From assembly GCA_051294375.1 (NCBI GenBank), contig JBJCIZ010000035.1, positions 62,001-126,000 on the forward strand: 64,000 nt of DNA, in the 5' to 3' direction. The first letter of the stretch is position 1, and each line of letters starts with the position of its first letter. This document shows, piece by piece, positions 4,160 to 50,994 of the stretch. Below the pieces are notes generated by a model, which did no database searches, was not told the DNA's origin, and worked only from the letters and a program-made list of their open reading frames with translations. Both the position numbers and the translations under genes were made by a program. Source of the stretch: Paraspadella gotoi. Its lineage: Eukaryota > Animalia > Chaetognatha.

Positions 4160-5780
4160 TGACGTCCTTGGCGACGAAATCGGTCGTGGAGCCGAAGATG
4201 AAGGATCCGGCGAAGGAAACGGCGCTGAAGATGACAGAGTCGGCGCTGAAGTTGATGCAGGAGACGCTGGAGACGGTGCTGTCGGAGCAGAAGACGACGA
4301 AGGAGTCGTTATCAGCGGCGACGTAAAGGCAACCTTTCTTCTCCTGAAAGATTTTCTATTTTTTGGTTGAAACTTCGTCGATTCGAGTCGGAGAAAGAAT
4401 AGGCGAGGATTGAAGGTTTCTCATTCGATGGAGATTTTCCTTCAGTTGTCGAATTCGACCATGGAGTGGAGAAATTGCAAAAGCAACGGCCGCATCAATG
4501 AGCGGCGCTAATTGCATGATCGAGATAACCCCAAACTCGGAATTCGCGATTAAAAAATAGTGATGAGAAAATTATTTGAATGAAATATTAGTCGGAATAA
4601 CAAAATTAATTTGTGATGAACGGCGAGTCCACGAGACTGGTTAAGTCGTTTTTACTGTAGAAAATGTTCGTTGGCCGTAGGTTAACTGACTTTAACATAG
4701 AGCAAGGTTTTCTAAATCTCGAATGATGTAAATGTTGAATAAATGACGAATAAATCATGAATAAAAAAATATTCTTAGATTCTGTAAAAACTACGGTTCC
4801 ATACAGCCATTCTTTTCCAGAGAAACGATTATGGTCGAATAACAAGTTACGAGGTTTTCAGCTAAAAGAGGGCTATCGACGTCCTTGGCGACGGAATCGG
4901 TCGTTGAGCCGATGATAAAAGATCCGGCGAAGGAAACGGCGTTGAAGTCAGCGATGAAGTCGACGATGAAGATGGCAACATCGATGTAATCAGCGGCGTC
5001 GTGAAGCCAACCTTTCTTCTCCTGAAAGATTTTCTATTTCGTGGCGATGAAATTGCAAAGGGCATTGATTAATTGTCGATCTGACTCCCAAATCAAAAAT
5101 AATTTTTTCTTAACTTGTAAGATTTTGTAACATGAAAAAAAAATTATTTGATTGGCAAAATATATATATGAAACTTTTTTTTTGGTAAATTTGAAAGAGA
5201 AAAAAATATTAATTTGAGTTGAATGGCGATTCCACGAGGTGGGTTTTGTAGTTTTTTTCTGTAGTAAATGTTTATTATTTTTTATGTCTCGAGGGTCGCG
5301 TATTTGATTCGTCGGCCATTGGTTGAACTGGCTTTAACTTGGAAAAAGGATTTATAAATCTCAAATGACGTAAATGTCGAATAAATGACGAATAAATCGT
5401 GAATAAGTTTATTTATTGTAGAGAATGAATTAATGGCGAAATTAATGAAGTATGGTGGACTAAAATCCACCAATCGTTCATCAGGCGGCAAGTCATTCGC
5501 CTCCCAACCCAGAGGTCCGTGGTTCTAGCCCAGTGGTCGCCTAGCAGTTAAGAGGGACGGGGCGCTGAACCCGCCTGTAACACGGTGTTACAGCCTGATT
5601 CAAGGCTCAGGGACTGCATATATTGAACGGTTCTGTCACTAACTCATAACAATTATTACTGTCTCTTCAGAAGTACAATAAATTGGTGTAGAAAATCCTT
5701 GGATTCTGTAAAAACTACGGTTCCATACGGCCGAACTTTTCCAGAGAAAATATTATGACGAGGTTTTCGGCTAAAAGAAA
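4160..5780. repeat. Two diverged ~720-bp tandem units, the second interrupted by a solo LTR; partial inverted copy at ~8282-8510
   Basis: GACGTCCTTGGCGACG... at 4161 and 4878; shared tail GATTCTGTAAAAACTACGGTTCCATAC...GCTAAAAGA at ~4779-4869 and ~5702-5778. Confidence 0.85.
5451..5669 (+). mobile_element. Solo LTR with tRNA-Gly-like Pol III cassette (TRIM relative)
   Basis: TATGG...CTCTTCA with 4-bp TSD GAAG; B-box GGTTCTAGCCC at 5521; TTCGCCTCCCAA resembles the tRNA-Gly anticodon arm; no polyA tail. Confidence 0.75.
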
Positions 5781-10166: not shown

Positions 10167-11204
10167 TATGGTGGACTAAAATCCACCAACCGTTCATCAG
10201 CGGCCATTGGTGCCGGAGGCAAGTCATTCGCCTCCCAACCCAAAAGGTCCGGGGTTCTAGCCCGGTGGTCGTCTGGCAGTTAAGAGGGACGGGGCGCTTA
10301 ACCCGCCTGTAACATAGTGTTACAGCCTGATCCGAAGCTCAGGGCCTGCTTATATTGAACGGTTCTGTCACTAACAATGTTACGTAATGATGATCAATAT
10401 ATTACGAAGAAATTCCAGCTTCTCTACCTTTTCCCCCACTGCTCTTTTGTTCCCTTACTAACGCAAGGATATTCCGTTTCTCTGGCGATCACAGCGACAC
10501 CTGTAGTATCGATTTTGTATTAAAGTATATACTTAAGTACAAGTTTCCGAGGCAGTGTGTGGCGGCTTCTGATTGGTTCCCGCCCTTTCGATAGATTTCA
10601 GTCCTGATTTCTATCGACGTGTGACCTTTCAGAATTCACTTAGTCTCACACTGCGTTTTGCTACTTTTTATAAGTTTTCTACAATTCGCATATAGTAGGA
10701 CTAAGCTCTGACGAACAAAGCCAGAGGTTTTTTTAATATATTTTTTAATATAATAGATATTCTCGGAAACACGTTTTTTAATAATAAGTTTTTGTGATCG
10801 CTGGATTGGTGGACTTTCTTTGTGATAGAGGCAACATTTTACAATTCTGGCTTCAGAAACAAGTAAGAGAATCTCTTTAAAATTTTTATATATATTTACT
10901 GAGTGTGTATTAAATGTTTTGTTCCCTTCGTCCAGAATTTCTAACTTTAGCTTTAGAGAAGATCCTGGATTTCGCATCGATTTGATCGTCCGCCTTGTCG
11001 TCGACGATCATCTTTGCCGAGACTTTGTCGTCAGCCATCTTGAGCTAAGTGGACCGGTGCCATCGTCTCTTTTGCGCCATCAACCTCGAATTCCTCTACT
11101 TATGATAGCGCAGAATTAGTTCAGGAAAGTTAGCGAATCAACGATAGCCACCTCTACGACTTCAGTTCGTTTACAAACACATAACAATAATTACTGTCTC
11201 TTCA
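10167..11204 (+). mobile_element. Second copy of the tRNA-Gly-like solo LTR, interrupted at 10378-11175
   Basis: Highly similar to 5451-5669; A-box-like TGGTGCCGGAGG at 10208, B-box at 10253; TSD CTTC; tail resumes at 11176-11204. Confidence 0.8.
10378..11175. mobile_element. ~800-bp solo LTR
   Basis: TGTTACG...CGTTTACA termini; 5-bp TSD AACAA/AACAC (1 mismatch); absent from the homologous copy at 5451. Confidence 0.65.
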
Positions 11205-15483: not shown

Positions 15484-15647
15484 TGTAAGCATTAGCTAAA
15501 ATAAAAGGAGACAGGATTTGATCTCGTGACTTAGAGGTCGCAGTCTCAATCGCTACCATTACGCCATCGGGCGTAATTACAAATTGATATCATAAAGTTC
15601 AACATATTTAGTCAATTGATAACTATTATTAATGTATTGTTCTTTTG

Positions 15648-15683
<36 letters not shown>

Positions 15684-15856
15684 AAAAGGTTATTTGGTAA
15701 TTCTATAAACGATCTGTTTTCACTCTGCTTTCTCTCTGAATAAAGCTAAACACCAAAACGTCGACCTTTTTATTCTAACGATAATAATCGTTTACAAGTG
15801 TGATACAAATTACAGAGAATGTAATGTTAAAATATCCGCTCGGTCAGACATCCACA
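15484..15856 (+). repeat. 5' LTR (373 bp)
   Basis: TGTAAGC...TCCACA; differs from the 3' LTR only by a few small changes and CT-repeat length. Confidence 0.97.
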
Positions 15857-15858
15857 AA

Positions 15859-15874
15859 TGGTGAACCCAACATT
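15859..15874 (+). promoter_or_regulatory. Primer-binding site, tRNA-Trp-like
   Basis: TGGTGAACCCAACAT, 2 nt after the LTR; the canonical Trp PBS is TGGTGACCCCGACGT. Confidence 0.7.
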
Positions 15875-16070
15875 CGAAATATTTCTAACCTTCTGATCTT
15901 CAAGAGGGGTGGCGTGACCCCAGACAAGCCTCCTACAGGTCGTCGAAGCCTTCAACGGAAAAACACCTTTTCTCAGGTGGGCAGGAGCGAGTAAATTGAG
16001 AGTTAAGCCTCTCCTGTCGATTAACCATCGATTTCCCCTTCTCTCCCCAAACTTCCTCGGTCAACACCGG

Positions 16071-17210
16071 ATGGTCGACACACGGCAAACAGCTCGCCAA
16101 AGAACTGGCGACGACGACCCGACTGCCTTTTCAGCGCCACCCTCACAGCATCGTCTGGACATCCCTATAGGACGCGGAGGACGCGGAGGACGTGGATCAC
16201 GATCGCCCTCGCCAGGAGCAATCTTTGCTTTTCCTTCGCGCCCGGAGCAATTCGCCAACGTGGTTGGCGAGATGGCATCGAATTTCCATTCATCGGCGGA
16301 TTCGTCAGAAGTCAACGAATTGCGCGCCGCACTACAGCAATCGCAGGCGGCAACAGCGGCGGCGACGGCGGCATTAGAGCGGGCTCTTCGACCCAAGAAA
16401 CCAGAGCTCCCGCCGTTCGACAAAACAAACGTAGAGATTTGGATTCGTCGTGTAGAGGCAGCATATACACGTGCCAACATTGTCACCGCGAAAGATAAAT
16501 TCGCTTTTCTGGAAAATAAATTCACAGTCGACACCGACGAACGAGTAAATAATTTTCTCTTTGGCGAAGCAACGGAGGAAGCTTGGGCGACATTTCTCTC
16601 CTATTTGCGTCGTGAATACGGTCTCTCCCGCCAAAAGCAAGCGTCCACGTTATTAGATGGCGTTGAGCGTGACGGAATGAAACCATCTAGACTCTTAGCC
16701 AGGATTGAGCAAAGATCAAAGGATGTATCGGTAGATGACATCAGGAAAGAGATGGTGAAAAGAAAACTCCCTACAGAAATTCAACGCGCCCTCGCCGATC
16801 GCATCGATGATGCATCCGCAGCAGAATACGCTGCCGCAGCGGACAAATTCTTTGATAATGAAGGACGCCCTCTCCATCCTTCGACAGCACCAACAGTCAA
16901 CGCCGTGAATCCCGAGGAGAATGACATTGACGACGCTTATTCGGACGACGAGTGTGGAATCAATTCAGTACGTCAAAGGAAGCCTCCCTTTAACAAACGC
17001 GGTTACAGCAAGGAGAGCAGCACTACAGAGAATGTCGCGGCCCCGCCACAAGGCGCTTCTCTTGCTTCACGGCCAAACCAATTAAAAACCCTTTGCTCTT
17101 TCCACGCGCGATTTGGGAAGAAGGCAAAAAATTGCAGACCAGGATGCGATTATTTCAGCAACTTTAAGAGTAAGCCAGCGGAAAACGCAAACGGGGGCCG
17201 GCGATGGTGA
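16071..17210 (+). CDS. gag: Gag
   Basis: First ATG at 16071 in the 15996-17210 ORF; C-terminal Cx2Hx9Cx3C motif (CSFHARFGKKAKNCRPGC) typical of CsRN1-clade gag. Confidence 0.93.
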   Translation: MVDTRQTARQRTGDDDPTAFSAPPSQHRLDIPIGRGGRGGRGSRSPSPGAIFAFPSRPEQFANVVGEMASNFHSSADSSEVNELRAALQQSQAATAAATAALERALRPKKPELPPFDKTNVEIWIRRVEAAYTRANIVTAKDKFAFLENKFTVDTDERVNNFLFGEATEEAWATFLSYLRREYGLSRQKQASTLLDGVERDGMKPSRLLARIEQRSKDVSVDDIRKEMVKRKLPTEIQRALADRIDDASAAEYAAAADKFFDNEGRPLHPSTAPTVNAVNPEENDIDDAYSDDECGINSVRQRKPPFNKRGYSKESSTTENVAAPPQGASLASRPNQLKTLCSFHARFGKKAKNCRPGCDYFSNFKSKPAENANGGRRW

Positions 17211-20200
17211 ACGCCGTCCCCCAAGGGCAAAAAATTAATTCACCGGCCTCTTCAACTCTTCTTTACGTCGTCGACGCTTCCGACGGCAGATTTTGGCTGG
17301 TGGATGGGGGTGCATTGGTTTCCCTTATTCCACCAACCCCTGAACAACGCGAGGCCGGCCCAGAAGCCCATACGCGCCTCCAAGCAGCCAACGGGACTCC
17401 AATCAACTGTTATGGAACCAAGATTGTCAATGTAACTCTTGGGCCAAGAATTTTTCCTTTCGAGGTGGTGGTTGCCGACGTCAAACAAAGTATTCTCGGC
17501 GCCGATTTTCTCGCCGAAAATTACTTGGCACCCAACCATCGTGACGGCGTACTATTGGATCTAAAAGATTATTCCACAATTGCTGCCGCACCTGCCCCTT
17601 TTGCTTTAAGTTCTCACGTTCATTTTGTCGACGAGACGGGAAACAAATTCTATCAGCTCCTTGATAGGTATCCTTCTCTCTCGGTCCCAACTTTCGAGCC
17701 AAAGCCTCCAAAACACGGAATAAAACATTATATTCCAACTACAGGAAGGCCATGCCAGTCTCGCGCGCGCCGCCTTGACCCTGAGAAACTTGCAGTTGCC
17801 AAGGCAGAAATGGACAAACTTGTCGCACTTGGTATTGCACAAAGGGACAAAAGCGAATGGTCATCACCTCTGCATGTGGTAGCCAAAGCTGATGGTGGAT
17901 GGCGCTGCTGTGGCGACTTTCGGCGCCTGAATTCCTTAACAACAGATGACAAATATCCTGTCAAACTGTTAGCCGACTTTAATGCAAATTTGGCTGGGAA
18001 AAAAATCTTTTCAAAGATTGACCTCCTAAAAGGGTACCATCAGATACCAGTGGCTGAGGAAGATATCAAGAAAACAGCCGTGATCACACCATTTGGCCTC
18101 TTCACTTTCCCTCGTTGCCCATTTGGATTGAAAAACGCAGGGCAGGATTTTCAACGCCTCATGGATGAAATCCTGGGAGACCTGCCTTATTGTTATGTGT
18201 ATCTGGACGATATCCTCGTCGCCTCAGATAACCCAGAAGAACATCAACAACACCTGGAGGAAGTCTTCAAGAACCTTTCTGACAACGGCCTCGTTGTTAA
18301 CAGAAAGAAATGTGTCCTTGGTCAGTCATCCTTAGAGTTCTTGGGTTATACTGTCGATTCCACTGGCATCAAACCACTTCAAAATCGTGTTGAAGTAATT
18401 CGTAAGACAGTGAAGCCAAACACTGTGAAGGAGCTGCAGCGTTTTCTTGGCGTAATAAATTATTACCGCCGCTTTATGCCTCGCGTTGCCCATACATGCA
18501 CACCCCTTTACGAGGCATTAAAAGGAAAGCCCAAGACACTAAAATGGACTGCAGAATGTACCCGTGCCTTTGAAGAGATAAAGGAAACTTTAGCAAAGGC
18601 CGTCCTTCTTCACCATCCTCGTACGGGTGCCCAATTGGCGCTCACAACGGACGCCTCTGACCATGCAATAGGAGCTGTCTTGGAACAAAGAGGAGACAAA
18701 GGATGGGAGCCACTGGCATTTTTCAGTGCCAAGCTTGAGACGAATCAGCGCAAATGGCCGCCATTCGAACGCGAATTATATGGCGCTTTTCGGGCCATTC
18801 GCCACTTTCGTCATTGGCTTGAAGGAAGGGCATTCACCCTGTATACAGACCACCAAAGCCTCATCTCAGCCCTTCACAAAAAGACGGAACCACAAACGGC
18901 AAGACAAACTTTCCAGTTGTCGGCAATCGCCGAATTTACAACAGACATTCGTCATTTGGAAGGAAAGGCCAATGTGGTGGCCGACGCCCTGTCACGCCCC
19001 ACATCATCACCAACAGTTGCTGCAGCCACTAACGTCCTGCCGAATGCCAATGATGACCTGCAACCGACAAGCTCAGCCCATCAGATCAGCGATGAGAAAA
19101 GGCAAGAATTGGATGGTTTTGTCTCGGCAATTAGCAACTTTGACATAGATTTGGAATTAATGGCCCAAGAGCAAGCATTGGATCCAGACCTCCAACAACT
19201 AATCAATGGAAGCAGCACAAGCTTAGCCTTCAAACGCGTCAAAATCGGCAACACAGATTTAATTGTAGACCTATCGAATGGCCCAGCCCGACCGTTTGTT
19301 CCTTTTTCCTGGAGGAGAAAGATTTTCAATACAATCCACAATTTAGGCCACCCAGGAGTGGCGCGCACAAGGCAGGCTGTAACAGCCAAATTTGTCTGGC
19401 CATCTGTTCGTCAAGATGTCTCAAAATGGGCCCGCGAGTGCCAATCTTGCCAGGCCACAAAAGTGCAACGAAACACCGTGCCTGATATTGGCGAATTTGT
19501 AGTTCCAAACAAAAGGTTTCAGCACTTACACATTGATTTGGTAAAAATGCCATCATCCAATGGTTTCAAGCACCTCCTTACCATTGTGGACAGATTTTCT
19601 CGCTGGCCTACTGCCATCCCTCTTTCCGACACCCTTGCTGTAACTGTTGTTGATGCTTTTGCATATGGTTGGGTGTCTATGTTTGGCATACCAGCAACCA
19701 TAACAACAGACCGAGGATCCCAATTTACTTCAGCTATGTGGGAGCAGATGAGCAAGGTATGGGGCATTAAAAGGCAACCAACTACAGCCTATCACCCAGA
19801 GGCAAATGGCATGGTGGAGCGATTTCATCGTAGACTAAAAGAATCACTGACGGCGATAGCGAGGGACGAACCTGAAAAATGGTTTTGGAGACTACCAATG
19901 GCGCTGCTGTCAATACGAACAACGATCAAAGCTGATTTAAAGGCATCGCCAGCAGAACTCGTCTTTGGCGAGGGAGTTGCCGTCCCTGGAGACATTCTCA
20001 GCCAACCAGAAAATGACGAGAGAAATCTTGAGGCGGATCGTCGTAACCTTCTCTCCAACCTCCGCCTGGAAATCGATCGACTTCAACCCACAAAAACGTC
20101 AAGACATCGTCAACCGAATGTTTTCGTTCCGGAAGATCTTGCAACCGCAACACACATTTTTGTCCGTCGCGGCGGTATCACTCCTCCACTCACCGCCGCA

Positions 20201-20671
20201 TATGAAGGACCCTACCGAGTCATCGCGAGAGGAGAAACAAACTTTCAAGTCGAATTTCCCGGAAGAGGAGCCGATAACGTCGCCATAGCGAGAATTAAAC
20301 CTGCATTCATCAATAACGACGACGAAAGAGAACAAACAGCAACTGCAACGCCTCCATCAAATCCGCCTCCCGGACGTCGCTCAAGAAGGGGCGATCGACC
20401 CCCTGAATCGACCAGGAGCACTCGCGTAACGAGACGCGAGACTCATCCTTCCGTTTCTCCCCCATTACCCCCACTTCCCCCTCTTCCCCCAATTACTTCT
20501 CCTTCCCTCCTTCCCCTTCCTTCCACTATTAACCCTTCTCCCCTTCACCCTCCGCTTACAACTTCTCCGTCAACGAATTCAAGAGAAAAAGGGCAAACAG
20601 AGGAACCCCGACGGCCTTTCCGACAATTACCAGTTAATTGCCCGTACCAACTACTCCTAGACCGCTGGTAA
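17174..20671 (+). CDS. pol: Pol (protease, RT, RNase H, integrase), -1 frame relative to gag
   Basis: LVDGGA, YLDD, TDAS/ADALSR, HHCC zinc finger, DDE core (HIDLV, TDRG, ERFHR), GPY; frame is open from the stop at 17171-17173. Confidence 0.98.
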   Translation, partial: ASGKRKRGPAMVNAVPQGQKINSPASSTLLYVVDASDGRFWLVDGGALVSLIPPTPEQREAGPEAHTRLQAANGTPINCYGTKIVNVTLGPRIFPFEVVVADVKQSILGADFLAENYLAPNHRDGVLLDLKDYSTIAAAPAPFALSSHVHFVDETGNKFYQLLDRYPSLSVPTFEPKPPKHGIKHYIPTTGRPCQSRARRLDPEKLAVAKAEMDKLVALGIAQRDKSEWSSPLHVVAKADGGWRCCGDFRRLNSLTTDDKYPVKLLADFNANLAGKKIFSKIDLLKGYHQIPVAEEDIKKTAVITPFGLFTFPRCPFGLKNAGQDFQRLMDEILGDLPYCYVYLDDILVASDNPEEHQQHLEEVFKNLSDNGLVVNRKKCVLGQSSLEFLGYTVDSTGIKPLQNRVEVIRKTVKPNTVKELQRFLGVINYYRRFMPRVAHTCTPLYEALKGKPKTLKWTAECTRAFEEIKETLAKAVLLHHPRTGAQLALTTDASDHAIGAVLEQRGDKGWEPLAFFSAKLETNQRKWPPFERELYGAFRAIRHFRHWLEGRAFTLYTDHQSLISALHKKTEPQTARQTFQLSAIAEFTTDIRHLEGKANVVADALSRPTSSPTVAAATNVLPNANDDLQPTSSAHQISDEKRQELDGFVSAISNFDIDLELMAQEQALDPDLQQLINGSSTSLAFKRVKIGNTDLIVDLSNGPARPFVPFSWRRKIFNTIHNLGHPGVARTRQAVTAKFVWPSVRQDVSKWARECQSCQATKVQRNTVPDIGEFVVPNKRFQHLHIDLVKMPSSNGFKHLLTIVDRFSRWPTAIPLSDTLAVTVVDAFAYGWVSMFGIPATITTDRGSQFTSAMWEQMSKVWGIKRQPTTAYHPEANGMVERFHRRLKESLTAIARDEPEKWFWRLPMALLSIRTTIKADLKASPAELVFGEGVAVPGDILSQPENDERNLEADRRNLLSNLRLEIDRLQPTKTSRHRQPNVFVPEDLATATHIFVRRGGITPPLTAAYEGPYRVIARGETNFQVEFPGRGADNVAIARIKPAFINNDDEREQTATATPPSNPPPGRRSRRGDRPPESTRSTRVTRRETHPSVSPPLPPLPPLPPITSPSLLPLPSTINPSPLHPPLTTSPSTNSREKGQTEEPRRPFRQLPVNCPYQLLLDRW
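17180..17244 (+). promoter_or_regulatory. -1 ribosomal frameshift signal (slippery site plus pseudoknot)
   Basis: G GAA AAC at 17180-17186, 6-nt spacer, stem GGGGG-C-CGGCG / CGCCG-T-CCCCC, loop GGTGAA complementary to TTCACC at 17239-17244. Confidence 0.8.
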
Positions 20672-21028
20672 ACGCCGTCCCGTCATATGCGGCAGTACTG
20701 AAAGAGATTCTACGCCGTCAGAATACTAAAGATAACAACTCTGAGCCAACACCTCCGTGAAAGATTTTGATTTTGTATATTTTCCTTTTTAAATTTAATT
20801 TAGTATATTGAAACCGAAACGTTTAAATTTTAAAACGTTCCAATATTTAAAAATTGTTAATTCTTTTTGTGTATAATTGTTAGGCGAATTCGTTCGTCAA
20901 GATTTGTAGATTAAGCAACATTGTAAAAACGTAATTGTAAACTATAAATGGTGCTCTTTTACTCAAACGTATTTGTATTTACAAAATCGTAGACGCCACT
21001 TTCCTTATTATTTCCTAAACTGGCATCT

Positions 21029-21035
21029 GGGGGGA
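21029..21035 (+). promoter_or_regulatory. Polypurine tract
   Basis: CT-GGGGGGA immediately before the 3' LTR. Confidence 0.85.
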
Positions 21036-21200
21036 TGTAAGCATTAGCTAAAATAAAAGGAGACAGGATTTGATCTCGTGACTTTAGAGGTCGCAGTCTC
21101 AATCGCTACCATTACGCCATCGGGCGTAATTACAAATTGATATCATAAAGTTCAACATATTTAGTCAATTGATAACTATTATTAATGTATTGTTTCTTTG

Positions 21201-21240
<40 letters not shown>

Positions 21241-21412
21241 AAAAGGTTATTTGGTAATTCTATAAACGATCTGTTTTCACTCTGCTTTCTCTCTGAATAA
21301 AGCTAAACACCAAAACGTCGACCTTTTTATTCTAACGATAATAATCGTTTACAAGTGTGATACAAATTACAGAGAATTAATGTTAAAATATCCGCTCGGT
21401 CAGACATCCACA
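21036..21412 (+). repeat. 3' LTR (377 bp)
   Basis: Near-identical to 15484-15856; followed by TATA. Confidence 0.97.
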
Positions 21413-22802: not shown

Positions 22803-25800
22803 CAGAGATGCAGACGCGATCCGGGAGGCGGAGTGGAAACGCGCGGAGGCGCATGTTTTTTGAGGTGGCGAACTTGGACAAGTCAAAAATTGGGGAGAAG
22901 GGAGGCGAATGCGGAGGCACAAAAAACGTTGCGCGTTCGCCTCTTGTGCTTTTGTTTTTATAGGCGAAAATCAAAAGGTTTTTGCCAAATTAAAACCTTT
23001 CTATTGTTCCAAAAATTTTTTCCAAATTTAGATATTGCTAAATTCTGAAGCGTTTATCAGCTGCCATTGGTTTTTTATTAACATATTTTTTATTAAAAAA
23101 AAAATTGGTTCTGTTTATATTTATTTTATCTAATAAGTTGTACATAAGCATATATTTTATATCTTTTTCTTTTCATGCATTCATTCACTCAATTTATTCT
23201 TTTTTATTTTAAACAAAAGATAATTAATTAATATTTAATTAAATTTGTTAATTTATTCCTATGAATATTTAATTAAATCATTTATTCATAATTCTATTCT
23301 ATTTATTTATTTACTTTATTGATTTTATTAATCAAATAATTTTTTTATCTAGCATCATTTTTTAAACTTGGATCTTTTTTGATTTGCATTATTATTTTAA
23401 CTGGCATCATTTTTTCAACTGGCATAATTTTTATAACATGGATTATTTTTTTATTTATATTATTTTACAACTTGAATCATATTTTGAATTTGCATTATTT
23501 TTTTAACCTATATAATTTTTGAATGCATTATTTTTAAATTTAATTTAATTTAAATTAATTTTATTATTTTTCCAACTTGCATCATGTTTTTATCTTGGAT
23601 CATTTTTTAACTTGCATCATTTCTTAAACTAGCTTCATTTTTAAACTTGTATATTTTTTTTGATTTGCAATAATTTTTTAATTTGCATCATTTTTTAATT
23701 CATTTCATTTTTTTATTTGCATTATTTTTGAAACTTGCATCATTTTTTTTAACTTCTATTATTTTTTTGATTATAATATTTTTTTGATTTACATTATTTT
23801 TTTTTATTACATTATTTTTTACTTACATCATTTTTGCACCTTATATCATTTTTTCATTTTAAATCATTTTTAATCTCGCATCATTTTTTGAATGCATAAT
23901 TTTTTAACCTATATCATTTTTCAACTTGCATCATTTTTTTTCAAATCGCAACATTTTTTAAATTGCAGCATTTTTTTAAACTTGCCTTATTTTCTTAACT
24001 TGTATTATTTTTTAACTTGTATTATTTTTCTTTTTTTGTAATTTTTTAAATTTATGAAATTGGTACAACCAATATAAAAATTATCCATTCATTTAATAAA
24101 TAAGCTATCTTGCCCCTGACTTTGGACAGGCTTTGGTGGTTTAAGGCCTCCATCACTCTTACAAGATAATTACATAGCAGGTCCCTGCAAGCTTTCAATC
24201 AAGACTCTCTCACAGTCCCGTTTATTCACTCCCAGAGTACCTGGCTTCCCTATCAATGAAGTGGAAAATATTTCAAAGAATGTTTCAATTGTATTGAAAA
24301 GACCACTCCCTTAAGTATTAGATCGGGGAATACTTATTGTACTTATATTACTTATATTACCTTTTAACTTATATGGTTTTAATTTTTATATTAAAATTTA
24401 TATTATCAATTTATTTATAAAAAACAATTCATAAAATTAGTACAAACAATATAACAATTATCCATTTGTTGTTAGTTTGTAAAAAATAATTAATTTATTA
24501 ATTAATATATAAGAAACTAATTAATTATTGTTTTAACTAATTAATTAATTAATTATCGCTAATGATCGTCATCAGATCCAGCATTGTTTGCTTTTTTTTA
24601 TTCTAAGTAAAACTAAAAACTTTCAGCTTGAATTGAAAAAACAAGAAAAAAATTTTTTTAATGCCAAATAGTAAAAAGATATAAAATTATGGTAATATTA
24701 TAATTTTTTAATAAATTACACAATTCGATTTTTACTGATTTGGAATACTACTAAAATTTTTGGATTTTTAATTGATATTTTTTTAAACAATTAGTAAAAT
24801 AATATCTTCTTTATTTTAATTTAATTAATCATATTAAATTAATAAAATGTTTGATTGGAACATAAAAAAAAGAAATAGAAAAAAAGAAAGTAAAATAAAA
24901 AAATAAAGGAATACAGAAAAAGTAAGAGAGAGAAAGAGGAAAAAGAGTGAGTGAAGAGAATAAGAGTAAATAAAAAGAAATGAAATAAAGTCATATAAAA
25001 ATAAATTTTGTCCTTACTCCTTATTCTCAATAATATCCTTTTCCTAAGTATTTTTTAAAAGCTTTATCTCTTTCTCTCCCCATTTCTTTTTTCTCTTTCT
25101 TTCTATCTCTTTCTCCCTCTCTCTCCCTCTCTCTTTTTTAAAATGTCTTGCAAAAATTGTTTAAAATATATATTTTGTTAAAAAGATTTGAAAAAAGTTA
25201 ATACATATTTAAAAATAAAAAAAATGTTTTATTTATTTATTTATTAATTTTAAACATAACAAATTGAAAGTTTTTTCATGACCCATTGATCTGAATTTTA
25301 AAAAAATAATATCAAATACAAAACTATAAATACATTTTTTAACAAAAAGCCGGAGGCATTAAGGAGGCGAACGCGGAGGCGNNNNNNNNNNTGCATTATT
25401 TTTTTAAATTTAATTTAATTTAAATTAATTTTATTATTTTTTCCAACTTGCATCATGTTTTTATCTTGGATCATTTTTTAACTTGCATCATTTCTTAAAC
25501 TAGCTTCATTTTTAAACTTGTATATTTTTTTTGATTTGCAATAATTTTTTAATTTGCATCATTTTTTAATTCATTTCATTTTTTTTAATTTGCATTATTT
25601 TTGAAACTTGCATCATTTTTTTAACTTCTATTATTTTTTTGATTTATAATATTTTTTTGATTTACATTATTTTTTTGATTTACATTATTTTTTAACTTAC
25701 ATCATTTTTGCACCTTATATCATTTTTTTCATTTTAAATCATTTTTTATCTCGCATCATTTTTTGAATGCATAATTTTTTAACCTATATCATTTTTCAAC

Positions 25801-41658: not shown

Positions 41659-41728
41659 CCAAATTATGCCAATTGACAAAAATATGCCAGTTGACCAAAT
41701 TCTGCAAGTTGACCAAATTATGCCAGTT

Positions 41729-42506
41729 TCTGGTGGTCCTATCACCACAGATAAATTTAAGCTGTTGCTTTCGCAGCGCCTCGGTGGCTCGCAGGTGGAC
41801 GTAATGGCACTCCCATCCGCAAATGTTGCGATGCCCATTGAGGTTCGAGCCCGTGAGGTTTCATGTTAGGAAGAAGATGATGGACCGGGCTAACCCGCCT
41901 GGTTTAGGCCATGGAGCCTGACGTGCCAGATCGCAAAGCTACTCGGAAGTACATGACATGCTGTTCTGCGCTTGGTCGCCACGAGGTGACACCGGCTCGC
42001 GGCTGTGGCGGCCGCTGTAAAAACAGCCTCTTTCAATGGTGAGCCCGAGTGGATCCCGAAACACGCAACCGGGCATGATAATATCGCTTGCCTTGATGAT
42101 GGTTTTGAGCTACACAGCTTTGCCAACTCAAAGCCAAGGCCACGCAGAATGAAGATGAGGTTCAGCGGAGGAGAACATGCGCTTGCATCCCCTGCTTCGT
42201 ACTCTTCATGATGCGAGAGTCCTGGGGGCGGCTGTCCTGGTGGTCCTATCACCACAGATAAATTAAAGCTGTTTGCTTTCGCAGCGCCTCGGTGGTCAGC
42301 TGACTAATGCACCATTCCAATGTGCGTCCCTGGTTCCAGCCTGAGGTTGTCATGTAGAAAGTGGGATGGACGGGCGGGTAACCCGCCTGTAGGCATGGGC
42401 CTACTGCCAGATCCAAAGCTGCTGGACTACATGAACATGCTGTCTCGCTGTCGCCACGAAGGTGACACGCCTGCGGGTGTGGCGCCCTTGTAAAACCAGC
42501 CTCTTA
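41729..42506 (+). mobile_element. Complete TRIM with tRNA-like Pol III promoter in its LTRs
   Basis: LTR1 41729-42035, PBS TGGTGAGCCCGAGTG 42037-42051, ~200-bp non-coding interior, PPT CTGGGGGCGG at ~42222, LTR2 ~42235-42506, 4-bp TSD AGTT; A-box 41785-41795, B-box GGTTCGAGCCC 41842-41852. Confidence 0.88.
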
Positions 42507-42990
42507 AGTTGACCAAATTATGCCAGTTGACCAAATTCTGCAAGTTGACCAAATTATGCCTGTTACCAATTATGCCTGTTGACCAAATTTATGCCTGTTG
42601 ACCAAATTAGGCCAGTTGACCAAATTAGGCCAGTTGATAAAATTTGCCAGTTGACCAAATTATGCTGGTTGACCAAATTATTTAATTGATCAAATTATGT
42701 CAGTTGACCAAATATATGTCAGTTGACCAAATTATGTCAGCTAGACCAAATTATGTCAGTTGACCAAATTATGCAAGTTGATTAAATTATGCAAGTTGAC
42801 CAAGTTAGCTTATTACCACTTAATTATCGATTGACCTGGAATTTTGTATGTGAGTAGAAAAGTGTGTGATTGAACAGGAAACCAAGTTTCGATGGAATCT
42901 TTTGAGTGGAAATGAGTTTAAATGGAAAAAAAACAAAAAACCTGTTTCTCTAATTGATTATGATTCTTTCCTTTATATTAAATGTATATG

Positions 42991-43881
42991 TGTAGAATCG
43001 AACCCAAGTATTTTGATCCACAATTGATCCTGACGCCTCGACGCCAATTCGGATCGATATTTACTGTTTGTTTTTAACTTTTTTTATATTATAAAAATAA
43101 GTTATTAAATTATTTAAATTAATAATAAAAACGTCGCGACCTGGTCTCGAACTCGGGATTTCCAATCCACTCGTCATGTCTTAACCAGAGTCGCCACTGA
43201 AATAGTTACTCTGTTTCTTTCAAATCTTGCTTATAACATTTCCCTTATAATAATAGAATTGATCTTTTGTTATCAATTAACAAAGGAACACTGTCAAATA
43301 TCAATAAGCAGCTGATTCCATATTTATATTATTTTTCTTTGTTATTCCAGTTAAAGTCTGGAAACCATTTTGAATTCTTCAGAGGAAATTAACTGCATTT
43401 ACATCCATATTAATTTCTCTTCGATTCGTTATTATTTAATTACTGTCAATTAATTAATTGTTTTATTATTGTTTACATATAGCTATTTGAATTGCTTGAT
43501 GGCAAAAGCACTTCGAATATCTATATGCTTTGATTATTTATTAAGGTATTGCTTTTAACGATTAACCAAGCAAGTTGGTTTAGAAACCTTTTATTGACGC
43601 CATCATAACTCTGCCACGTACGTGCGTCAGCGTCACGCCAGCGTTAAGTCATTTCCGGTTCAATTAAAAAACTCTTCTAATCGAACTAAAATCAAGTCTA
43701 CGTCACGTTGAGTCACGCCACGTCTCTAACGCCTTCTTACGACGCCGGTAACGACGCCAGCGGCGACGCCACTTCGCGGCCACGCCCACTCTCATTCAAG
43801 CGAGCCAATCTCTTCGTTGATTCGCCTGACGTTGGATGGCGTTATTCTGCATCAAATTTGAATTGTCCTACGCCATCTACA
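42991..43881. mobile_element. 891-bp solo LTR with two minus-strand tRNA-like cassettes
   Basis: TGTAGA...TCTACA termini, perfect TSD TATG; an empty site is visible (inverted) at ~6981-7000. Confidence 0.85.
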
Positions 43882-44765: not shown

Positions 44766-46199
44766 AGACAGTCCGAGATAAAAATTAGCGAATAAAAAAG
44801 TTGTTATTTTACTCACTGAATAAAAATACTTAAAATACTTACAAAATACATAAAATTGATAAAATTTTTATTCCGATAACATTGTTTAATCACATGCAAT
44901 ATATCTAGTAAGGCGGGCCAAAATTGAACACTTTTTATAACTTCTAGTTCTCCCAAAAAAAATAGTTTTCCCTTCTACTACTAAATTGATTTTCAATGTA
45001 ACTTTTTGAATTAGTTCATTGAGTTGTTGCACTGAAGCTTTTAAATATTTATTAATATATAACAAATGACAAAAAAAAAATTTAAAAATTTGATTTTTTT
45101 AAGAACGGGTTCTTGTAGAGCTTAAAAAGTTAAATGAAAGTTAGTACTATAATTTTTTCAAATTTTGACAATAAATTGGTTAAAAATAGAAAAAACCTTA
45201 AAAAATCATCATCATCATCATTATTGGCTGAATTTTATTTTTTTTAATTTTTCATTAATAAAACAAAAAAATTGAATCTTTAATATTAATGATTACTAAT
45301 AAATGTTTCAATTAATTAATTAATTAATGTGAAAAAATGATGCAAGTTAAAAAAATCTTAAAAGCATAAAGATCGTCGCAATTGCATAAAAAGAGAGAGA
45401 AAGAGAGAGAGAGAGAAGGAGACATAAAATAAAATAGAGGATATTTGTTTGTTTTGATAAAATGTAAACAAAACATATTTAATAACTGTCCTAACCCAAT
45501 TTTAAGGACATCGATGATGATAAGTTGAATATAAATTTAAAATTATTTATTACTTTTTAAAATTAATTAATTAATCAATTAATTAATTAATTAATTTCTG
45601 ATGGATTTTGATGGAATACGGGAAGTTGAACAAGAAATATAATTACAGCTTTTAAAAATTCTTTTATTTTCTCAATAAAAATTTAACAAAAACTGATAAA
45701 GATGATGAGTTTTTACGGTTTTTCTTATTTTTTCACCTACTTATCATAAAAATATTTAAAAAGGAATTAAACTTTGTGTAAACAGCTTTTTGTGAGCCAT
45801 CTGAATCTGATCTTAAAGTTGTAAATTTTTTTCAAAATATTACGGGCCTTTCCTATCTATAAATAAATATTAAAAAAATAATTACTAGGGTATAAAGCCA
45901 TATAAAAAATTTTTTGTCCATAAAATGTATACTTAAAAATGTAAAAATTTTTGTTTGAGCATGTACTGACTAGCCCCATTGAGTGCGGCTACCCCTACTA
46001 CTAAAATCGATAGGAATTTATTCTCAGCTGATGCGGAAAATTGTCAAGGACAGAATTGATAACAGATGTGAATTGTTAAGAAAAAACTTAGAAACAGGTG
46101 AAATTAACAATTCGGATCTAGCTTTTGATAAATGTTCAGGCGAATTACTCCAGCATGGAGAACCAATCTCAATTGTAGAGTTAGTGAATCACGTGTATT

Positions 46200-49140
46200 T
46201 CCCAGCAATGGGAGAAAATCAACTCTCAGTAAAAGAAGCTTTTTTTTCATAATTTTGCACAATTACTGGAGTCACTCGGAGATGAACATCTCCAGAAGCG
46301 GAACATCGACGCGGATGTGACAGTAAAGCTTGTTCAGCTTTCTTTAGAAGCTGACTTAGAATAGTTTGAACGTAAGGACGCGTTGACCAATGTGATGAAA
46401 AGTCCGATGCTGAAGCTGGAAGAGGCCAGGGCTCTTGTCCGGGTTGAGCATGAATTGGAAGACCCAGTCTTGGCTCCTCCCGCAGCTTTTCAGGATCGCG
46501 ATGCAATTTATCCATCACAGCGAATGGCTGCTTGTTTCTCCATTTATAAGGATGAATCAACCCATGGACGAGTTTCACCTCTCCAACGTAGCGACGCAAG
46601 AACCGTCCTTTATCTGAAAGAAAGGAAAAACCCGGTTAAACGCGGATCTCTTTCTTCTTGTGAAAATAAATAAAGGTAAGCCCACCTTCTTCTCCCCATA
46701 GTAATGTCCAAGGTTTTAAAAGGCGACGTCATCGTCAGGCCTCTCATGTCTTGCCCATGGACTACAGTGGAGATAAGGATGATCAATTGGGCGTCCTTTG
46801 GAAAGAGAGGCTGCTCTCGGCAAGGAAGAATAGTGCGGAACTGAAGAAAAGGGATGCTGTCAATCAATCAGCTGATGAAGACCATGATGCGATCAAATTT
46901 GCCGCAATAATTACACCTAAGTCAAAAAAGAAAAAGATTAAAATTACGAATTGCCCTCAATCCAAGGTTTTTGGAGTTAATGAATGCCTAGGTGAATTGG
47001 TGCCTGAAGATATCTCACCCGTCACTGATGATGGCAATGATAACAAAAAACCTTTCAAACATACAATAAATACTATTTTTGAAATGGTCACATGACAAGA
47101 GTTAAATAAAAGACAAAAAACTCGGACAAAACGGTCGTGGGGGGTGTATGGTAAATGAGGCGGGATCCAAGAACATCCACACCAGTCAATGCTTTGGATG
47201 AAGACCCCGCATATTCAACCCTTTTGTCTGCGATAAGAAAAAAACTCTAAGACGAAAAAGCCAAGGATTGGAGAAAGGATTCGGATAGTGATTCTGATGA
47301 ATTTGGCCATACAAAGTAACCTAATGACGACATGGATCTTGAAACAAGATCTATGCCATGGGGGCGAAGGCACAAAGGCCATTCACCTGATTAAAGCTGT
47401 TGACAACTTTAGGACAAATAATTTTATGGCACAACAGGTGAAATTTGAAGACAAAATTTGCAAACGAATTATGCAAAACAGCGATTTGGCCAGTGCAGAC
47501 TATACTGTGTCTTTTTTATGACCCATCAAAAAAAGGCAAACTATTAAAGGCAAAGAAAAACTACTCCTTTGATAGATCAATCCATCTGGGATAAGGATCA
47601 CAAGACCTTACAAATTATGATACACAATGAGAAATCTTAATCTTGATGAAGCAGAAAAAAGAATTCTAATTCTGCATGGCATGGGCATTGAAAAGATTAG
47701 ATCTGTTGTGATGGATCATCTGTCGTTTGAGAAGATTGCATCAATACTGTCAATAATGTTTGGCTCTCTCTCTCTTCAAAAAAACATTTGAAGAAGGCAA
47801 GCCAAGACAAAGCAGAAAAGAAAGAACAAGCATATTTTCTCCCCATTGTGTCAGAGAAGTCGTGAGCACTTTTCTTCACTCGTTTTCAGAGATAGAAGTT
47901 ATGCCATGGCCAGGCAGGTCTGGAGAAGAACACTTGGTTTTACAAACTCAAGTTTCTTACCATGGTACCCATTCTAAAGAAAACCATTAAAGAGGCATTA
48001 TCATGGGATATGACTCAAATTAAATAAAAATAAATGAACAAAAATAAATTTAAAAAAATCATTCAATATAACAGTATTATCTAATTTAAATGTAGATGCA
48101 CCCTCTATTTCCGGAGGACAACGCTGGCATCCCCATCCCAAACAGATAAATAATATTATATTTAAATACTTAACAAAATATTCTAACAAATAAATGAATT
48201 CATAAATAATAGTTATTTTAAATACAAAAAAAAATAAATAAAGATAGTGAAACAAGTAATCTTGCAACTTTTATAAAAAATAATATAATAATATAATATA
48301 TATAATAATTTAATTTTGTTTGCAGTGAGGAGACTGAGCACGTCAATGAAATTTTTGCTTTTCAACAAAAATCCTTCTGAACTGAGAGAAAACTTGTCTT
48401 TTCTTCAATTCATGTTGAATGGATCGTGCTTACACCCAATCACTGGAGAAACGCCTTTTGAGACGCTTTCCTCTCGGGAAGCCTCATATTTTCATTCTCT
48501 GCTGGTCAAGAGTTCTTGCAAGACAGAGTGGAAAAAATGAGAAAAATAATTTCAGTTTTCCGTGAAAAATATGTTTACTATTCAGAGAGAGTCTCAACGT
48601 TTAGAACAGTAAACTCAGAAAATTTTCAAGAAGGAGAAAATGTCTGGATAAAAATTTTTTCAGCTAAGAAACATTTGAAATACTTAAAATCAGTCTTGCC
48701 TCGTTACCGTTTAGCAAAAATCATCAAAATAGTCTCACCTGTTTCGCTGATGCTTGAAGAGTTGTCCACTGGAAGGCTGGTCTCACGACACATTGTGGAT
48801 GTTTTTAAAATGGCGCCAACGTCGTCATTTGGAAATGTTTTCACTGACACGAAGAGCGCCCGCGTTCGCGAAATGGAAGATTTTGAGGGTGATGACGATT
48901 TTAGCAATAAAAAACTTGAACTCGGTGACCGAAGTGGAAATGTAGCGGAGGCGGGTCTGGAAAACCTTAAAATGGCAAACCAGGACCCAGAGAACGATCG
49001 GAGAGCAGACGATTCGAATGATAAACCGCGATCCTCCTCCCGGAGATCGGAAAGAACAAAGTCTCAAAAACAAAAAACGGCGAAAAAACTGAACGTAGAT
49101 ACAACTTACGAGCGAGAAATGGAGTTAACTATAAAGAATA
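46200..49140 (+). pseudogene. pol: Degenerate Ty3/gypsy pol (RNase H/integrase fragments)
   Basis: FMLNGSCLHPITGETPFETL and LPRYRLAKIIKIVSPVSLMLEELSTGRLVSRHIVDV resemble the integrase C-terminal region; weaker RNase H-like SDARTVLYL; many frameshifts; AT-rich stretch at ~48000-48315. Confidence 0.7.
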
Positions 49141-50399
49141 GTTCTGCCCATATTCTTCTTCTAATTATGTTGATATTGTTTAAAATTGTATTTATTTAAA
49201 TTTATTTCAACTTTTCCCCTGAAAAAAAATTTTTAAGAGAATATTTAACATATTTAAAAGAATTAAATTTATTTCAAATCTTTACTCCGAAAAAAATGTT
49301 TTTTTTTCTCTTCCCTTTTTAAATTTTAAACTTTTTTATTAAAATCTTTTTTCCTTTCTAATTTTTTAATTATTTAATTCTTTTCCTTTTCAAATTGTTT
49401 ATTCTCTTTCTTCTTTATTTTTCTTGTTTTATTGATGGCAGAAGTTTTTTGGAGATTGACTCTGAACACGTTCTTACGTTGTATGTTGTTGCTCACTTTT
49501 AAGACAAACTTTTTTACATTTAAAACTGCCTGGGGGCCAAGGGTATCCATACTCACGGCTCGCGACTTTTTCAAAATCTAAAAATCTTTTACTTTAAAAC
49601 TTAAATTTAAACTTATTTAATTTAATTTTAAAATAATTACCCTTGAAAAACTTAAACTTAAAAATAACTTAAAAAAAGTTTATACTTGAACTCGAACTTA
49701 AATTTAAACTTGAATTTAAACTTGAATTAAAAACCTTGGTAAACTTGAATTAAAATTAAATTAAAATTAAGACTCTTGACTGACGAGATGAACTGATCAA
49801 TTACATGTTAATCATGTAAACAAATTTAATATACTATCTAAATAAATATGCATGTTGAATAACATGCAAACGAAATATAAACTATCTAAATTTTTACATG
49901 CTTTGGAGCATGTAAACAAACGATTTAATCTAATCTACACAATCTCAAAACACGCTAAATTCACTTAATACTATCTAACACTAAGCGGCGTGGATGTCGA
50001 CGTTGTCGTCCGACGCGTCAGCGGCGGCGTCGCATTCAACGCGCTGAAGATTGCAGCTCTAAAAGGGATTATTGTTTATGGAAATATTATTTTGTGAAAT
50101 AAAAATATCTCTTGATAATGGATTGTAATTCTTTTGAGACTACATCGCCAGTGATTGACGGCGGTGGAGTGACGCGGAGACGGCGGCGGCGAAACCAAGG
50201 GTGGCGCCGGAATCTGGTCGCCCGCGATGGCGGACAGACGGTGCTGCGCGGTCTGCGCGCGTGCTGCCTCGACTCCTGCAGCTGCATTGGCTGCCTGCAA
50301 CGTGGCGAAATTGGCGTTGGCGGCGCCGGCGTTTGAGGATTTTCTGAACTGTTTTTTCCAAAATATTTTTAAATTTTTTTTTTTTATTTAATGTTGAAT

Positions 50400-50935
50400 T
50401 TAAAAGTTGAAGTCTTGAAACTGAATCAACTTTGGATGAGATTGTAAAAACCTACTCATTCGGAAGATGAGGCTAATGGTGAGGGCGACGGTGAGGCCGA
50501 GGATGACTCCGGCGGAAAAGCCGCGGATAAAGGTGTCGTTGTTCGTCGACGTGGGCCCTGGAAGGTGCGTTGGCGGAGCGACGTGCTCGTCGTAGTTATT
50601 TTTTAAGGTGGTTGTCTCCACCCCCGCCCGTGAATCGGACCCGGTGGGCCGATCCATTGTTGGCGGCGGTATGAGGCCGCAAGTTGGCGGCGGCGTTGGC
50701 GGCGGTCTGCCCCGCAAGCGGTGGCGGAGACGCATGCTTGGCGTCGACGATGTTATTGTCAAATCAAAAGGCTTTCTAGGGGCAGATTCGGAAGCGGCTC
50801 AGTCATGCTGTAACTTGGTGTGGTCCTTCACTGGGTGTGCATTGGCCATGTATGCAGGTGCGGGACACATGCAGGTGTATGAGCTGAGTTGGGTTTGTAA
50901 GCCCTTGGGCAGGGTGCCACGGGATTGGACGCCCG
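50400..50935 (-). pseudogene. Putative antisense membrane protein (EGF-like, Pro/Thr stalk, TM), frameshifted
   Basis: ORF 50400-50762 has a P/T-rich stalk and hydrophobic FSAGVILGLTVALTISLIF; upstream frames read RGT/C...SYTCMCPAPAY/GQCT. Confidence 0.4.
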
Positions 50936-50994
50936 TCTTCTAATATCTGAGGTATTTGTGTGGCAGTAGGGGTAACCATAGTTCAAAATGCAAA

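What the first reader, a model, noticed from the sequence alone, without database searches (positions are those of the whole stretch)
41729..42506. Complete miniature LTR element with a tRNA-like Pol III promoter, and a plausible autonomous partner in the same window
Seen: two ~300-bp direct repeats inserted in an 18-bp minisatellite with TSD AGTT. LTR1 is followed by TGGTGAGCCCGAGTG and LTR2 is preceded by CTGGGGG. LTR1 contains a sense A-box, a perfect B-box, an acceptor-like stem (GCCTCGG...CCGTGAGGT) and several hairpins. There is no T-run of 5 or more (one T4 at 42103) in an AT-rich genome. Known: Cassandra TRIMs carry 5S promoters, and tRNA-bearing TRIMs (Helenus type, from memory) have been reported, so the concept has precedent. 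Inference: this element is Pol III-transcribed and mobilised by CsRN1-clade machinery, because the intact element at 15484 shares the Trp-like PBS with a non-C at position 7, the CTGGGGG PPT and the 4-bp TSD. The family and the partner link may be undescribed.
Basis: partly seen in the sequence, partly recalled or inferred. Interest (0 to 1): 0.85.

Follow-up and report, generated by a model that had tools for sequence, protein, structure and literature searches.

The report
Twister ribozyme in animal mini-retrotransposon
This is one poorly sequenced copy of a small, gene-less jumping element of an invertebrate whose end repeats carry tRNA-type promoter boxes followed by a fold predicted to be a self-cutting twister ribozyme, so it likely cuts its RNA free, closes it into a circle and is copied by a Gypsy-type element, a route so far described for plant elements with a different ribozyme.

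Summary
The miniature LTR element is real: two repeats (77.7% alike), a tRNA-Trp-type primer site, a G tract and tRNA-type A/B boxes. That fits Helenus (Kojima 2024). Behind the tRNA-like head, LTR2 (42350-42434) holds a permuted (type-P5) twister ribozyme fold: cleavage triplet, catalytic G, both pseudoknots, and stems P3, P4 and P5. Two of 43,128 element shuffles gave the core, none with the P5 stem. A sister family (two solo LTRs with clean 4-bp duplications) and a third family show the same fold with compensatory changes. P1 is replaced by a short self-complementary linker, hinting at cleavage as a dimer. Best reading: a Pol III-driven, twister-bearing LTR retrozyme of an animal, mobilised by a CsRN1-clade Gypsy. 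Nothing ties it specifically to the element at 15484. Cleavage, transcription and circles are untested, and Rfam does not score this fold. Nine literature searches listed no such element.

The parts
41725..41728 (+). Left copy of probable 4-bp target duplication (AGTT) in 18-bp minisatellite
   Evidence: element ends damaged, so uncertain
41729..42035 (+). LTR1, noisy copy (5' TG missing, ends CA)
41785..41852 (+). A box (41785-41795) and B box (41842-41852) in LTR1; spacing inflated by insertions
41861..41956 (+). Corrupted twister counterpart in LTR1; UAA at 41891-41893; fails the descriptor
42037..42054 (+). Primer binding site, tRNA-Trp type (11 of first 12 bases match the Trp 3' end printed in PMC10886601 Fig S2A)
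   Evidence: read by eye
42036..42232 (+). Non-coding interior, 197 bases; no other match in the window
42222..42232 (+). G-rich tract directly before LTR2
42233..42506 (+). LTR2 (starts TG), the copy closer to the family
42286..42347 (+). tRNA-like head in LTR2 with imperfect A box (42293) and B box (42332)
42350..42434 (+). Type-P5 twister fold: P5 42350-57/42427-34, P2' 42361-64, catalytic G 42365, T1' 42367-69, linker 42370-78, UAA 42379-81 (predicted cut 42379/42380), T2 42385-86, P3 42387-406, P4 42407-11/42420-25, L4 42412-19
   Evidence: layout compared with PMC8501958 Table 1
42507..42510 (+). Right copy of probable target duplication (AGTT)
5451..5669 (+). Sister-family solo LTR (TA...CA, 219 bp, 4-bp duplication GAAG); decayed tRNA head and twister
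10167..11204 (+). Sister-family solo LTR with about 800-bp insert, 4-bp duplication CTTC; tRNA head 10200-10272, intact twister fold 10276-10349
15484..21412 (+). Intact CsRN1-type Gypsy element (LTRs 97.6% alike; gag 15918-17210 with CHCC motif, pol 17174-20671 in a shifted frame); a possible, not shown, helper
24104..24170 (-). Third twister family (type P5, no P3), duplicated near 25986-26027; comparison for covariation

Best explanation
This is a gene-less miniature LTR retrotransposon whose LTR carries tRNA-type promoter boxes followed by a permuted twister fold; it is likely transcribed by RNA polymerase III, is predicted to cut itself in both LTRs, and the released unit would be closed into a circle and copied by a CsRN1-clade Gypsy element. 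Shown: LTR-primer site-interior-G tract-LTR layout, many related copies, A/B boxes, the twister core with P3, P4, P5 and both pseudoknot complementarities, 4-bp duplications in a sister family. Inferred steps: (1) Pol III starts at the tRNA head of LTR1 and reads through, as the element has no T5 run; (2) the two twisters, whose P1 is reduced to a short self-complementary linker, cut at U/A 41891 and 42379, possibly only as a pair; (3) the unit between the cuts (488 bases in this noisy copy) has no terminal repeat and is ligated by a host tRNA ligase; (4) tRNA-Trp primes reverse transcription round the circle, regenerating two LTRs; (5) a Gypsy integrase inserts it with a 4-bp duplication.
For: Descriptor of a permuted twister finds 4 sites (3 families) in the window against a mean of 0.37 in 100 shuffles, maximum 3. 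The P5 stem, not part of that descriptor, is 8, 4, 7 and 7 pairs at the four sites, with unrelated sequence in each family; 0 of 2023 window shuffles had 3 sites with P5 of 4 or more; 2 of 43,128 shuffles of the element had a core, 0 had core plus 8-pair P5. Changes on both sides between families: T1 CCA/UGG against CCG/CGG (CCC/GGG in S. mansoni); T2 GC/GC against AC/GU; first P2 pair C-G against A-U. LTR2's P3 ends (CUGUAG...UACUG) repeat those of S. mansoni twisters. Control: of 29 public loci matching the bare letter pattern, 1 pairs T1 and 0 have a P4 of 3 or more. LTR nature: sister solo LTRs with 4-bp duplications, chance 0.0083 each; 8 contigs run on past 42505 starting CA and then diverge (agreement 0.53); 374, 282, 59 and 34 contigs of four runs lie on the element stretch. 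Linkers hold an inner 4-base palindrome in all three families (GCGC, GGCC; CCGG in LTR1 and in the contigs that lack three letters at 42372, 79-99% of depth in four runs), chance about 0.0003-0.0015. Model by analogy with plant LTR retrozymes and dimeric minimal hammerheads.
Against: No cleavage, transcript or circle was observed. Rfam gives no twister hit on LTR2 or the 10167 copy even at E 10; only the third family scores, 25.8 bits against a cut-off of 37.6. The descriptor was written after I saw the sites. Only 1 of 2 LTRs and 1 of 2 sister copies pass it. P2 is three pairs with a bulge, not the four of S. mansoni, and P1 is not a normal stem. The window's own LTR2 linker is 9 bases, not palindromic, and a competing hairpin over the UAA is the minimum-energy fold. 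The predicted circle is no more stable than shuffles (z +0.3), unlike the stable rods described for retrozymes, though the sequence is noisy. Contigs cross the LTR1/primer-site and interior/LTR2 junctions by only 11 and 27 letters, under the tool's 31-letter bar. No second full-length copy was seen; no genome is held.
Confidence: 0.55

Rival explanations
1. The twister is active but serves only to form the RNA's 3' end: a linear Pol III transcript from the tRNA head of LTR1 to the cut in LTR2 carries a repeat of about 100 bases and is copied by ordinary strand transfer, without a circle.
For: The LTR has no T-run terminator; the first T4 after LTR2 is 335 bases into the flank (42842), so a precise 3' end is needed. 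The predicted circle shows no excess stability. Twisters form ends of linear RNAs in Perere-3.
Against: Both LTRs are copies of one sequence after retrotransposition, so the LTR1 ribozyme should cut too and remove the repeat; a dimer would cut both at once (inference).
Confidence: 0.2
2. An ordinary Helenus TRIM whose LTR captured a tRNA-headed, twister-bearing module (from a SINE-like or Penelope-type repeat); the ribozyme is now an inactive passenger.
For: Short P2, no normal P1, no Rfam score; decayed cores in the 5451 copy and in LTR1; a third family with the same variant sits outside any recognised LTR; Kojima proposes SINE capture as the origin of Helenus.
Against: Two LTR families that are only about 53% alike overall (145 of 276 columns) keep every core element with compensatory changes in T1, P3, P4 and P5, which points to selection on the fold inside LTRs.
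Confidence: 0.2
3. The two-LTR layout is an assembly stutter or a partial tandem of a Penelope-type (non-LTR) repeat, not an LTR element.
For: The contig has unpolished stretches: neighbouring duplications show indel/substitution ratios of 4.0 and 5.5. Junction-crossing contigs are short. Unchecked earlier notes place similar twisters in Naiad elements.
Against: Primer site right after CA, G tract right before TG, a distinct 197-base interior covered by contigs of independent studies, and 4-bp duplications of two sister solo LTRs; animal non-LTR retrozymes lack these marks.
Confidence: 0.05

Closest known systems
Helenus (TRIMp3), Kojima 2024, PMC10886601
   Same: Non-coding TRIM under 1000 bp, tRNA-derived A/B boxes in the LTR, primer site and purine tract, 4-bp duplication and Gypsy-type primer as in animal families; tRNA-Trp primer as in wasp Helenus-2_SyJa.
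   Different: A twister fold follows the tRNA head and no T-run does; the paper's main text has no mention of twister and mentions ribozymes only in one reference title. Three short LTR motifs from the window found no matching Helenus LTR in Data S1 (line breaks can hide matches). Host unresolved, probably an arthropod.
Plant LTR retrozymes, Cervera et al. 2016, PMC4918200
   Same: 300-400-bp LTRs each with a self-cleaving motif, short non-coding interior, primer site and purine tract, 4-bp duplication, GC about 55%, Gypsy helper.
   Different: Animal host; twister instead of type III hammerhead; tRNA-Trp instead of tRNA-Met; internal Pol III boxes; circles and cleavage not shown here.
Twister ribozyme, type P5 (Rfam RF02684; reviews PMC5408937, PMC6154101; S. 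mansoni twisters in PMC8501958)
   Same: UAA cleavage triplet, G-A before T1', L4 of eight bases, T1 and T2 complementarity, P3, P4, ends in P5.
   Different: P2 of three pairs with a bulge; P1 reduced to a 6-base self-complementary linker; no Rfam score for the P3-bearing form; found in an LTR, whereas published retroelement twisters I saw are in non-LTR elements (Perere-3; RTE 'in preparation').
Schistosoma SM-alpha repeats and animal non-LTR retrozymes (PMC6765202, PMC7229834, bioRxiv 10.64898/2026.07.22.740005)
   Same: Animal repeats with a ribozyme; SM-alpha has a Pol III promoter followed by a hammerhead.
   Different: Those are tandem repeats without LTR, primer site or purine tract, with type I hammerheads and a proposed Penelope helper.
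CsRN1 clade of Ty3/Gypsy (PMC2582038)
   Same: The element at 15484 has the CHCC Gag motif, overlapping frames and a Trp-like primer site; the TRIM's primer site matches the clade pattern.
   Different: The TRIM encodes nothing and shares no sequence above chance with this particular element. No tree was built.

Membership tests
Helenus (TRIMp3) | Non-coding TRIM under 1000 bp with two LTRs | tested here: met
   778 bp, repeats 77.7% alike; no ORF of 150 aa there
Helenus (TRIMp3) | tRNA-derived sequence with A and B boxes in the LTR | tested here: met
   Boxes in LTR1 and LTR2, canonical forms in contig ends; ARAGORN and Rfam call no tRNA
Helenus (TRIMp3) | Primer binding site and polypurine tract | tested here: met
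   42037 and 42222; host tRNA-Trp not available
Helenus (TRIMp3) | 4-bp target duplication (animal families) | tested here: inconclusive
   AGTT on damaged ends in this copy; met in 2 of 2 sister solo LTRs
Helenus (TRIMp3) | Transcription by RNA polymerase III | not testable with these tools
   No raw RNA reads offered; also unvalidated for published Helenus
Twister ribozyme, type P5 | UAA at the cleavage site and catalytic G-A in L1 | tested here: met
   42379-42381 and 42365-42366 against PMC8501958 Table 1
Twister ribozyme, type P5 | Pseudoknots T1 and T2 | tested here: met
   Complementary at 4 of 4 descriptor sites by construction, with changes on both sides between families; 1 of 29 control loci pair T1
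Twister ribozyme, type P5 | Stem P4 with loop L4, and ends in stem P5 | tested here: met
   P4 5 pairs with one bulge in the window copy; P5 8 pairs
Twister ribozyme, type P5 | Stem P2 | tested here: inconclusive
   Three pairs with a bulged base in all three families, against four pairs in S. mansoni
Twister ribozyme, type P5 | Stem P1 (essential in the consensus; dispensable in a mini-twister) | tested here: not met
   Short self-complementary linker instead of a hairpin; P1 reported dispensable
Twister ribozyme, type P5 | Rfam RF02684 gathering score | tested here: not met
   No hit on LTR2 or 10167 copy; 25.8 of 37.6 bits for the third family
Twister ribozyme, type P5 | Self-cleavage | not testable with these tools
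   Needs an in vitro assay
LTR retrozyme (plant type) | Hammerhead ribozyme in each LTR | tested here: not met
   No hammerhead hit; a twister fold stands in its place. Works like one, is not a member by this definition
LTR retrozyme (plant type) | LTRs, primer site, purine tract, 4-bp duplication, no coding capacity | tested here: met
   As above; duplication firm only for the sister family
LTR retrozyme (plant type) | Abundant circular RNA | not testable with these tools
   Only contigs, none on record as RNA
CsRN1 clade (element at 15484) | CHCC Gag motif and tRNA-Trp primer site | tested here: met
   C-x2-H-x9-C-x3-C at Gag residue 393; primer site 11 of first 13 bases (by eye)
CsRN1 clade (element at 15484) | Phylogenetic placement of RT | not tested
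   Named hits among the best 120 include three tapeworm polyproteins at 47-51%; no tree built

The most novel reading that the evidence does not exclude
The first animal LTR retrozyme built on a twister: a Pol III-driven TRIM whose two P1-less twisters cut only when both LTRs pair through a palindromic linker, releasing a circular RNA that a CsRN1-clade Gypsy copies. With the unremarked hammerhead in wasp Helenus-2_SyJa, this would mean that 'tRNA promoter plus ribozyme in an LTR with a Trp primer' arose more than once in animals with different ribozymes.
Probability: 0.4. Interest if true: 0.85.

Novelty: new variant of a known kind. Interest (0 to 1): 0.72.

Why it matters
Papers read here describe LTR retrozymes as plant elements with hammerheads and animal retrozymes as lacking LTRs, primer sites and purine tracts. 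This element joins the Helenus and retrozyme layouts and uses a different ribozyme class. It gives a testable answer to two open points: how a TRIM with an internal Pol III promoter and no terminator makes a copyable RNA, and what eukaryotic twisters are for. It also offers a natural P1-less twister that may act as a dimer, a form that Rfam misses, so such elements may be overlooked in other genomes.

Tried and rejected
LTR1 41796-41957 had no contig cover at 80% in any of the 7 runs laid: noted only, not used as evidence. Summed depth on LTR2 is about 10 times or more that on the interior, but the tool states this is no copy number, and the noisy interior may lose matches. Exact LTR 27-mer in metagenome contigs: 0 hits. 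Twister letter pattern in metagenome and viral contigs: 20 and 9 loci, no relatives; two are tmRNA; kept as a negative control. MAFFT put the twister cores out of register, so the pair count on it (248 of 500 shuffles as high) is uninformative and a covariance model was not built. Hammerhead or other Rfam family in the element: none. Special link to the Gypsy at 15484: rejected for lack of shared sequence. LTR identity as an age: rejected. Host taxon from a zinc-transporter exon: invertebrate, best named close hits arthropods at 73-76%, not resolved. Roth et al. 2014 was not held; twister features come from reviews and PMC8501958. Earlier-finding look-ups by sequence and place gave nothing.

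Full report
1. The observation. The two repeats are real: 41730-42032 and 42237-42505 align at 77.7% over 309 columns and interrupt an 18-bp minisatellite. LTR1 ends CA, one base follows, then TGGTGAGCCCGA (42037). A G tract (42222-42232) precedes LTR2, which starts TG. AGTT lies on both sides, but LTR1 lacks the opening TG and LTR2 lacks a clean CA, so the duplication rests on damaged ends. The element has one T4 and no T5.

2. The window's copy is noisy. LTR1 differs from LTR2 by 14 substitutions and 36 indel events, 31 of them extra letters in LTR1 (ratio 2.6). Four dispersed repeat pairs in the window give 0.2-0.55, the Gypsy LTR pair 1.0 on three substitutions, and two neighbouring duplications 4.0 and 5.5. 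Contigs of public runs depart from the window at fixed places, mostly by lacking single letters (42206, 42210, 42236, 42372-42374, 42421, 42488); one covers 42157-42259 with 0 substitutions and 7 gaps. I infer unpolished long-read sequence. The family is not an artefact: 374, 282, 59 and 34 contigs from four runs (three studies) lie on the 806-base stretch; their loose ends show canonical A and B boxes; 8 contigs continue past 42505 with CA and then diverge. Contigs carrying about 40%, 100%, 40% and 2% of depth in the four runs show a form of the primer site that extends the tRNA-Trp match to 17 of 18 bases (compared by eye with Fig S2A). Contigs cross the two internal junctions by 11 and 27 letters only, short of the tool's bar, and no second full-length copy was seen.

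3. Helenus fit. Kojima 2024 (PMC10886601; main text parts 1-4 of 6 read, supplement parts 1, 9, 10 of 11 and two term searches) defines Helenus as TRIMs with tRNA-derived LTR sequence; animal families have 4-bp duplications and Gypsy-type primer sites, tRNA-Trp among them. The element fits. Three LTR motifs from the window matched no Helenus LTR in Data S1. The host is an invertebrate, probably an arthropod.

4. What was missed: a twister fold. A weak match at 10284 led to a second tRNA-headed family and Rfam gave sub-threshold Twister-P5 hits at 24157 and 26028 (25.8 bits, E 0.32). Reading LTR2 against the published S. mansoni layout (PMC8501958 Table 1, passages) gives a circularly permuted twister: P2' GTGG, catalytic G and A, T1' TGG, linker, TAA (predicted cut 42379/42380), P2 CCC, T2 GC, P3 CTGTAGGC/GCCTACTG, P4 CCAGA with loop TCCAAAGC. 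A descriptor finds 4 sites in 3 families against 0.37 per shuffle. I wrote it after seeing the sites, so the stronger test is the P5 stem that a type-P5 twister must have (PMC5408937, passages) and that the descriptor did not use: 8 pairs in LTR2, 4 in the sister family, 7 in the third, each of different sequence. Of 775 chance cores in 2023 window shuffles, 203 had 4 pairs or more, 12 had 7 and 5 had 8; no shuffle had three sites with 4 or more; 2 of 43,128 shuffles of the element alone had a core. T1, T2 and the first P2 pair change on both sides between families. Of 29 public loci with the bare letter pattern, 1 pairs T1 and none forms P4. Against: Rfam does not score LTR2 or the 10167 copy, probably because its P5 model as shown has no P3 (inference); LTR1, the 5451 copy and a copy near 12800 fail the descriptor; P2 is short; P1 is not a hairpin; a competing hairpin over the UAA is the lowest-energy fold of the window's LTR2. 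P1 is reported dispensable. In its place all three families have a short linker with an inner palindrome (chance about 0.0003-0.0015; for this family it rests on LTR1 and the contigs, not on the window's LTR2). Minimal hammerheads with palindromic loops cleave as dimers (PMC6765202, passages); the same is my inference here, noted before I saw two unchecked earlier notes with a like idea for Naiad elements.

5. The layout is LTR-type. The sister family occurs as two solo LTRs, 5451-5669 and 10167-11204 (the second with an insert of about 800 bases), both ending CTCTTCA like the TRIM's LTR and flanked by GAAG and CTTC duplications (chance 0.0083 each). The two families align at only 145 of 276 columns yet both keep tRNA head and twister fold.

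6. The partner. The element at 15484-21412 is an intact Gypsy (Pfam RT, RNase H, integrase) with the CHCC Gag motif of the CsRN1 clade. The clade's published primer site is TGGTGA[G/C]CCCG[T/A] (PMC2582038, passages): the TRIM matches it, the neighbour departs at positions 7 and 11. Shared 10-mers are at chance level and the neighbour's duplication length is undefined in a TA repeat. A CsRN1-clade helper is likely; this copy is not singled out.

7. Mechanism. Most likely (0.55): Pol III transcription from the LTR1 head, cleavage in both LTRs, ligation to a circle, Trp-primed reverse transcription and Gypsy integration, as modelled for plant LTR retrozymes (PMC4918200, PMC7761336, PMC7229834; passages). 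All five steps are inferred. The predicted circle of the noisy copy is not unusually stable (z +0.3). Rivals: 3'-end formation of a linear RNA (0.2), inactive passenger (0.2), artefact or Penelope-type tandem (0.05).

8. Novelty. Searches (listings and abstract openings) showed no LTR element with a twister and no animal LTR retrozyme; subscription papers, Repbase and bioRxiv supplements could not be seen, and PMC7761336 mentions unpublished insect type III hammerhead elements. A 2026 preprint (passages) still places LTR retrozymes primarily in plants. PMC12471100 (passages) and PMC6154101 (passages) were used for background. I rate it a new variant of a known kind, interest 0.72.

Noticed in passing
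PMC10886601 Data S1, Helenus-2_SyJa-LTR and Helenus-2_SyUm-LTR: Read by eye, these wasp LTRs hold a complete type III hammerhead core (CTGATGA, stem II, GAAAC, complementary loops) after the tRNA-like part, with a tRNA-Trp primer site; the paper's main text does not mention it. Not run through any tool.
   Followed up: partly
PMC10886601 Data S1, Ajax LTRs: Both Ajax LTRs contain a stretch resembling the first half of this twister (TGG, short linker, TAACCCGCC, hairpin) but no visible L4 loop or catalytic G; relic or chance.
   Followed up: no
window 15511-15566 (-), and 21063-21119 in the other LTR: The Gypsy element's LTR starts with an antisense tRNA-like sequence (A box, B-like box); Rfam tRNA 11.8 bits, E 7.8.
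   Followed up: partly
window 24104-24170 (-), 25975-26040 (-), decayed copy 12799-12888 (-): Third family of P5-type twister without P3, with AC/GU in T2; its parent element was not identified and no reverse transcriptase frame was seen nearby.
   Followed up: partly
window 10373-11187: An insert of about 800 bases with TG...CA-like ends splits the sister solo LTR; probably another solo LTR.
   Followed up: no
window 23524-27237 and 26138-36047: Neighbouring duplications with indel-dominated differences (ratios 4.0 and 5.5), holding a zinc-transporter (SLC30A9) exon at 28236-28538; may be assembly duplicates of noisy reads.
   Followed up: partly
window about 42990-43050 (-): Another tRNA-like A/B box pair with 31-base spacing, probably a SINE head.
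   Followed up: no
window 45983-53219: Broken reading frames resembling integrase-end and envelope-like parts of another retroelement, read by eye; no Pfam hit.
   Followed up: no
window 5447-5450/5670-5673 and 10163-10166/11205-11208: The two sister duplications, GAAG and CTTC, are reverse complements of each other; a target preference is possible but two copies cannot show it.
   Followed up: no
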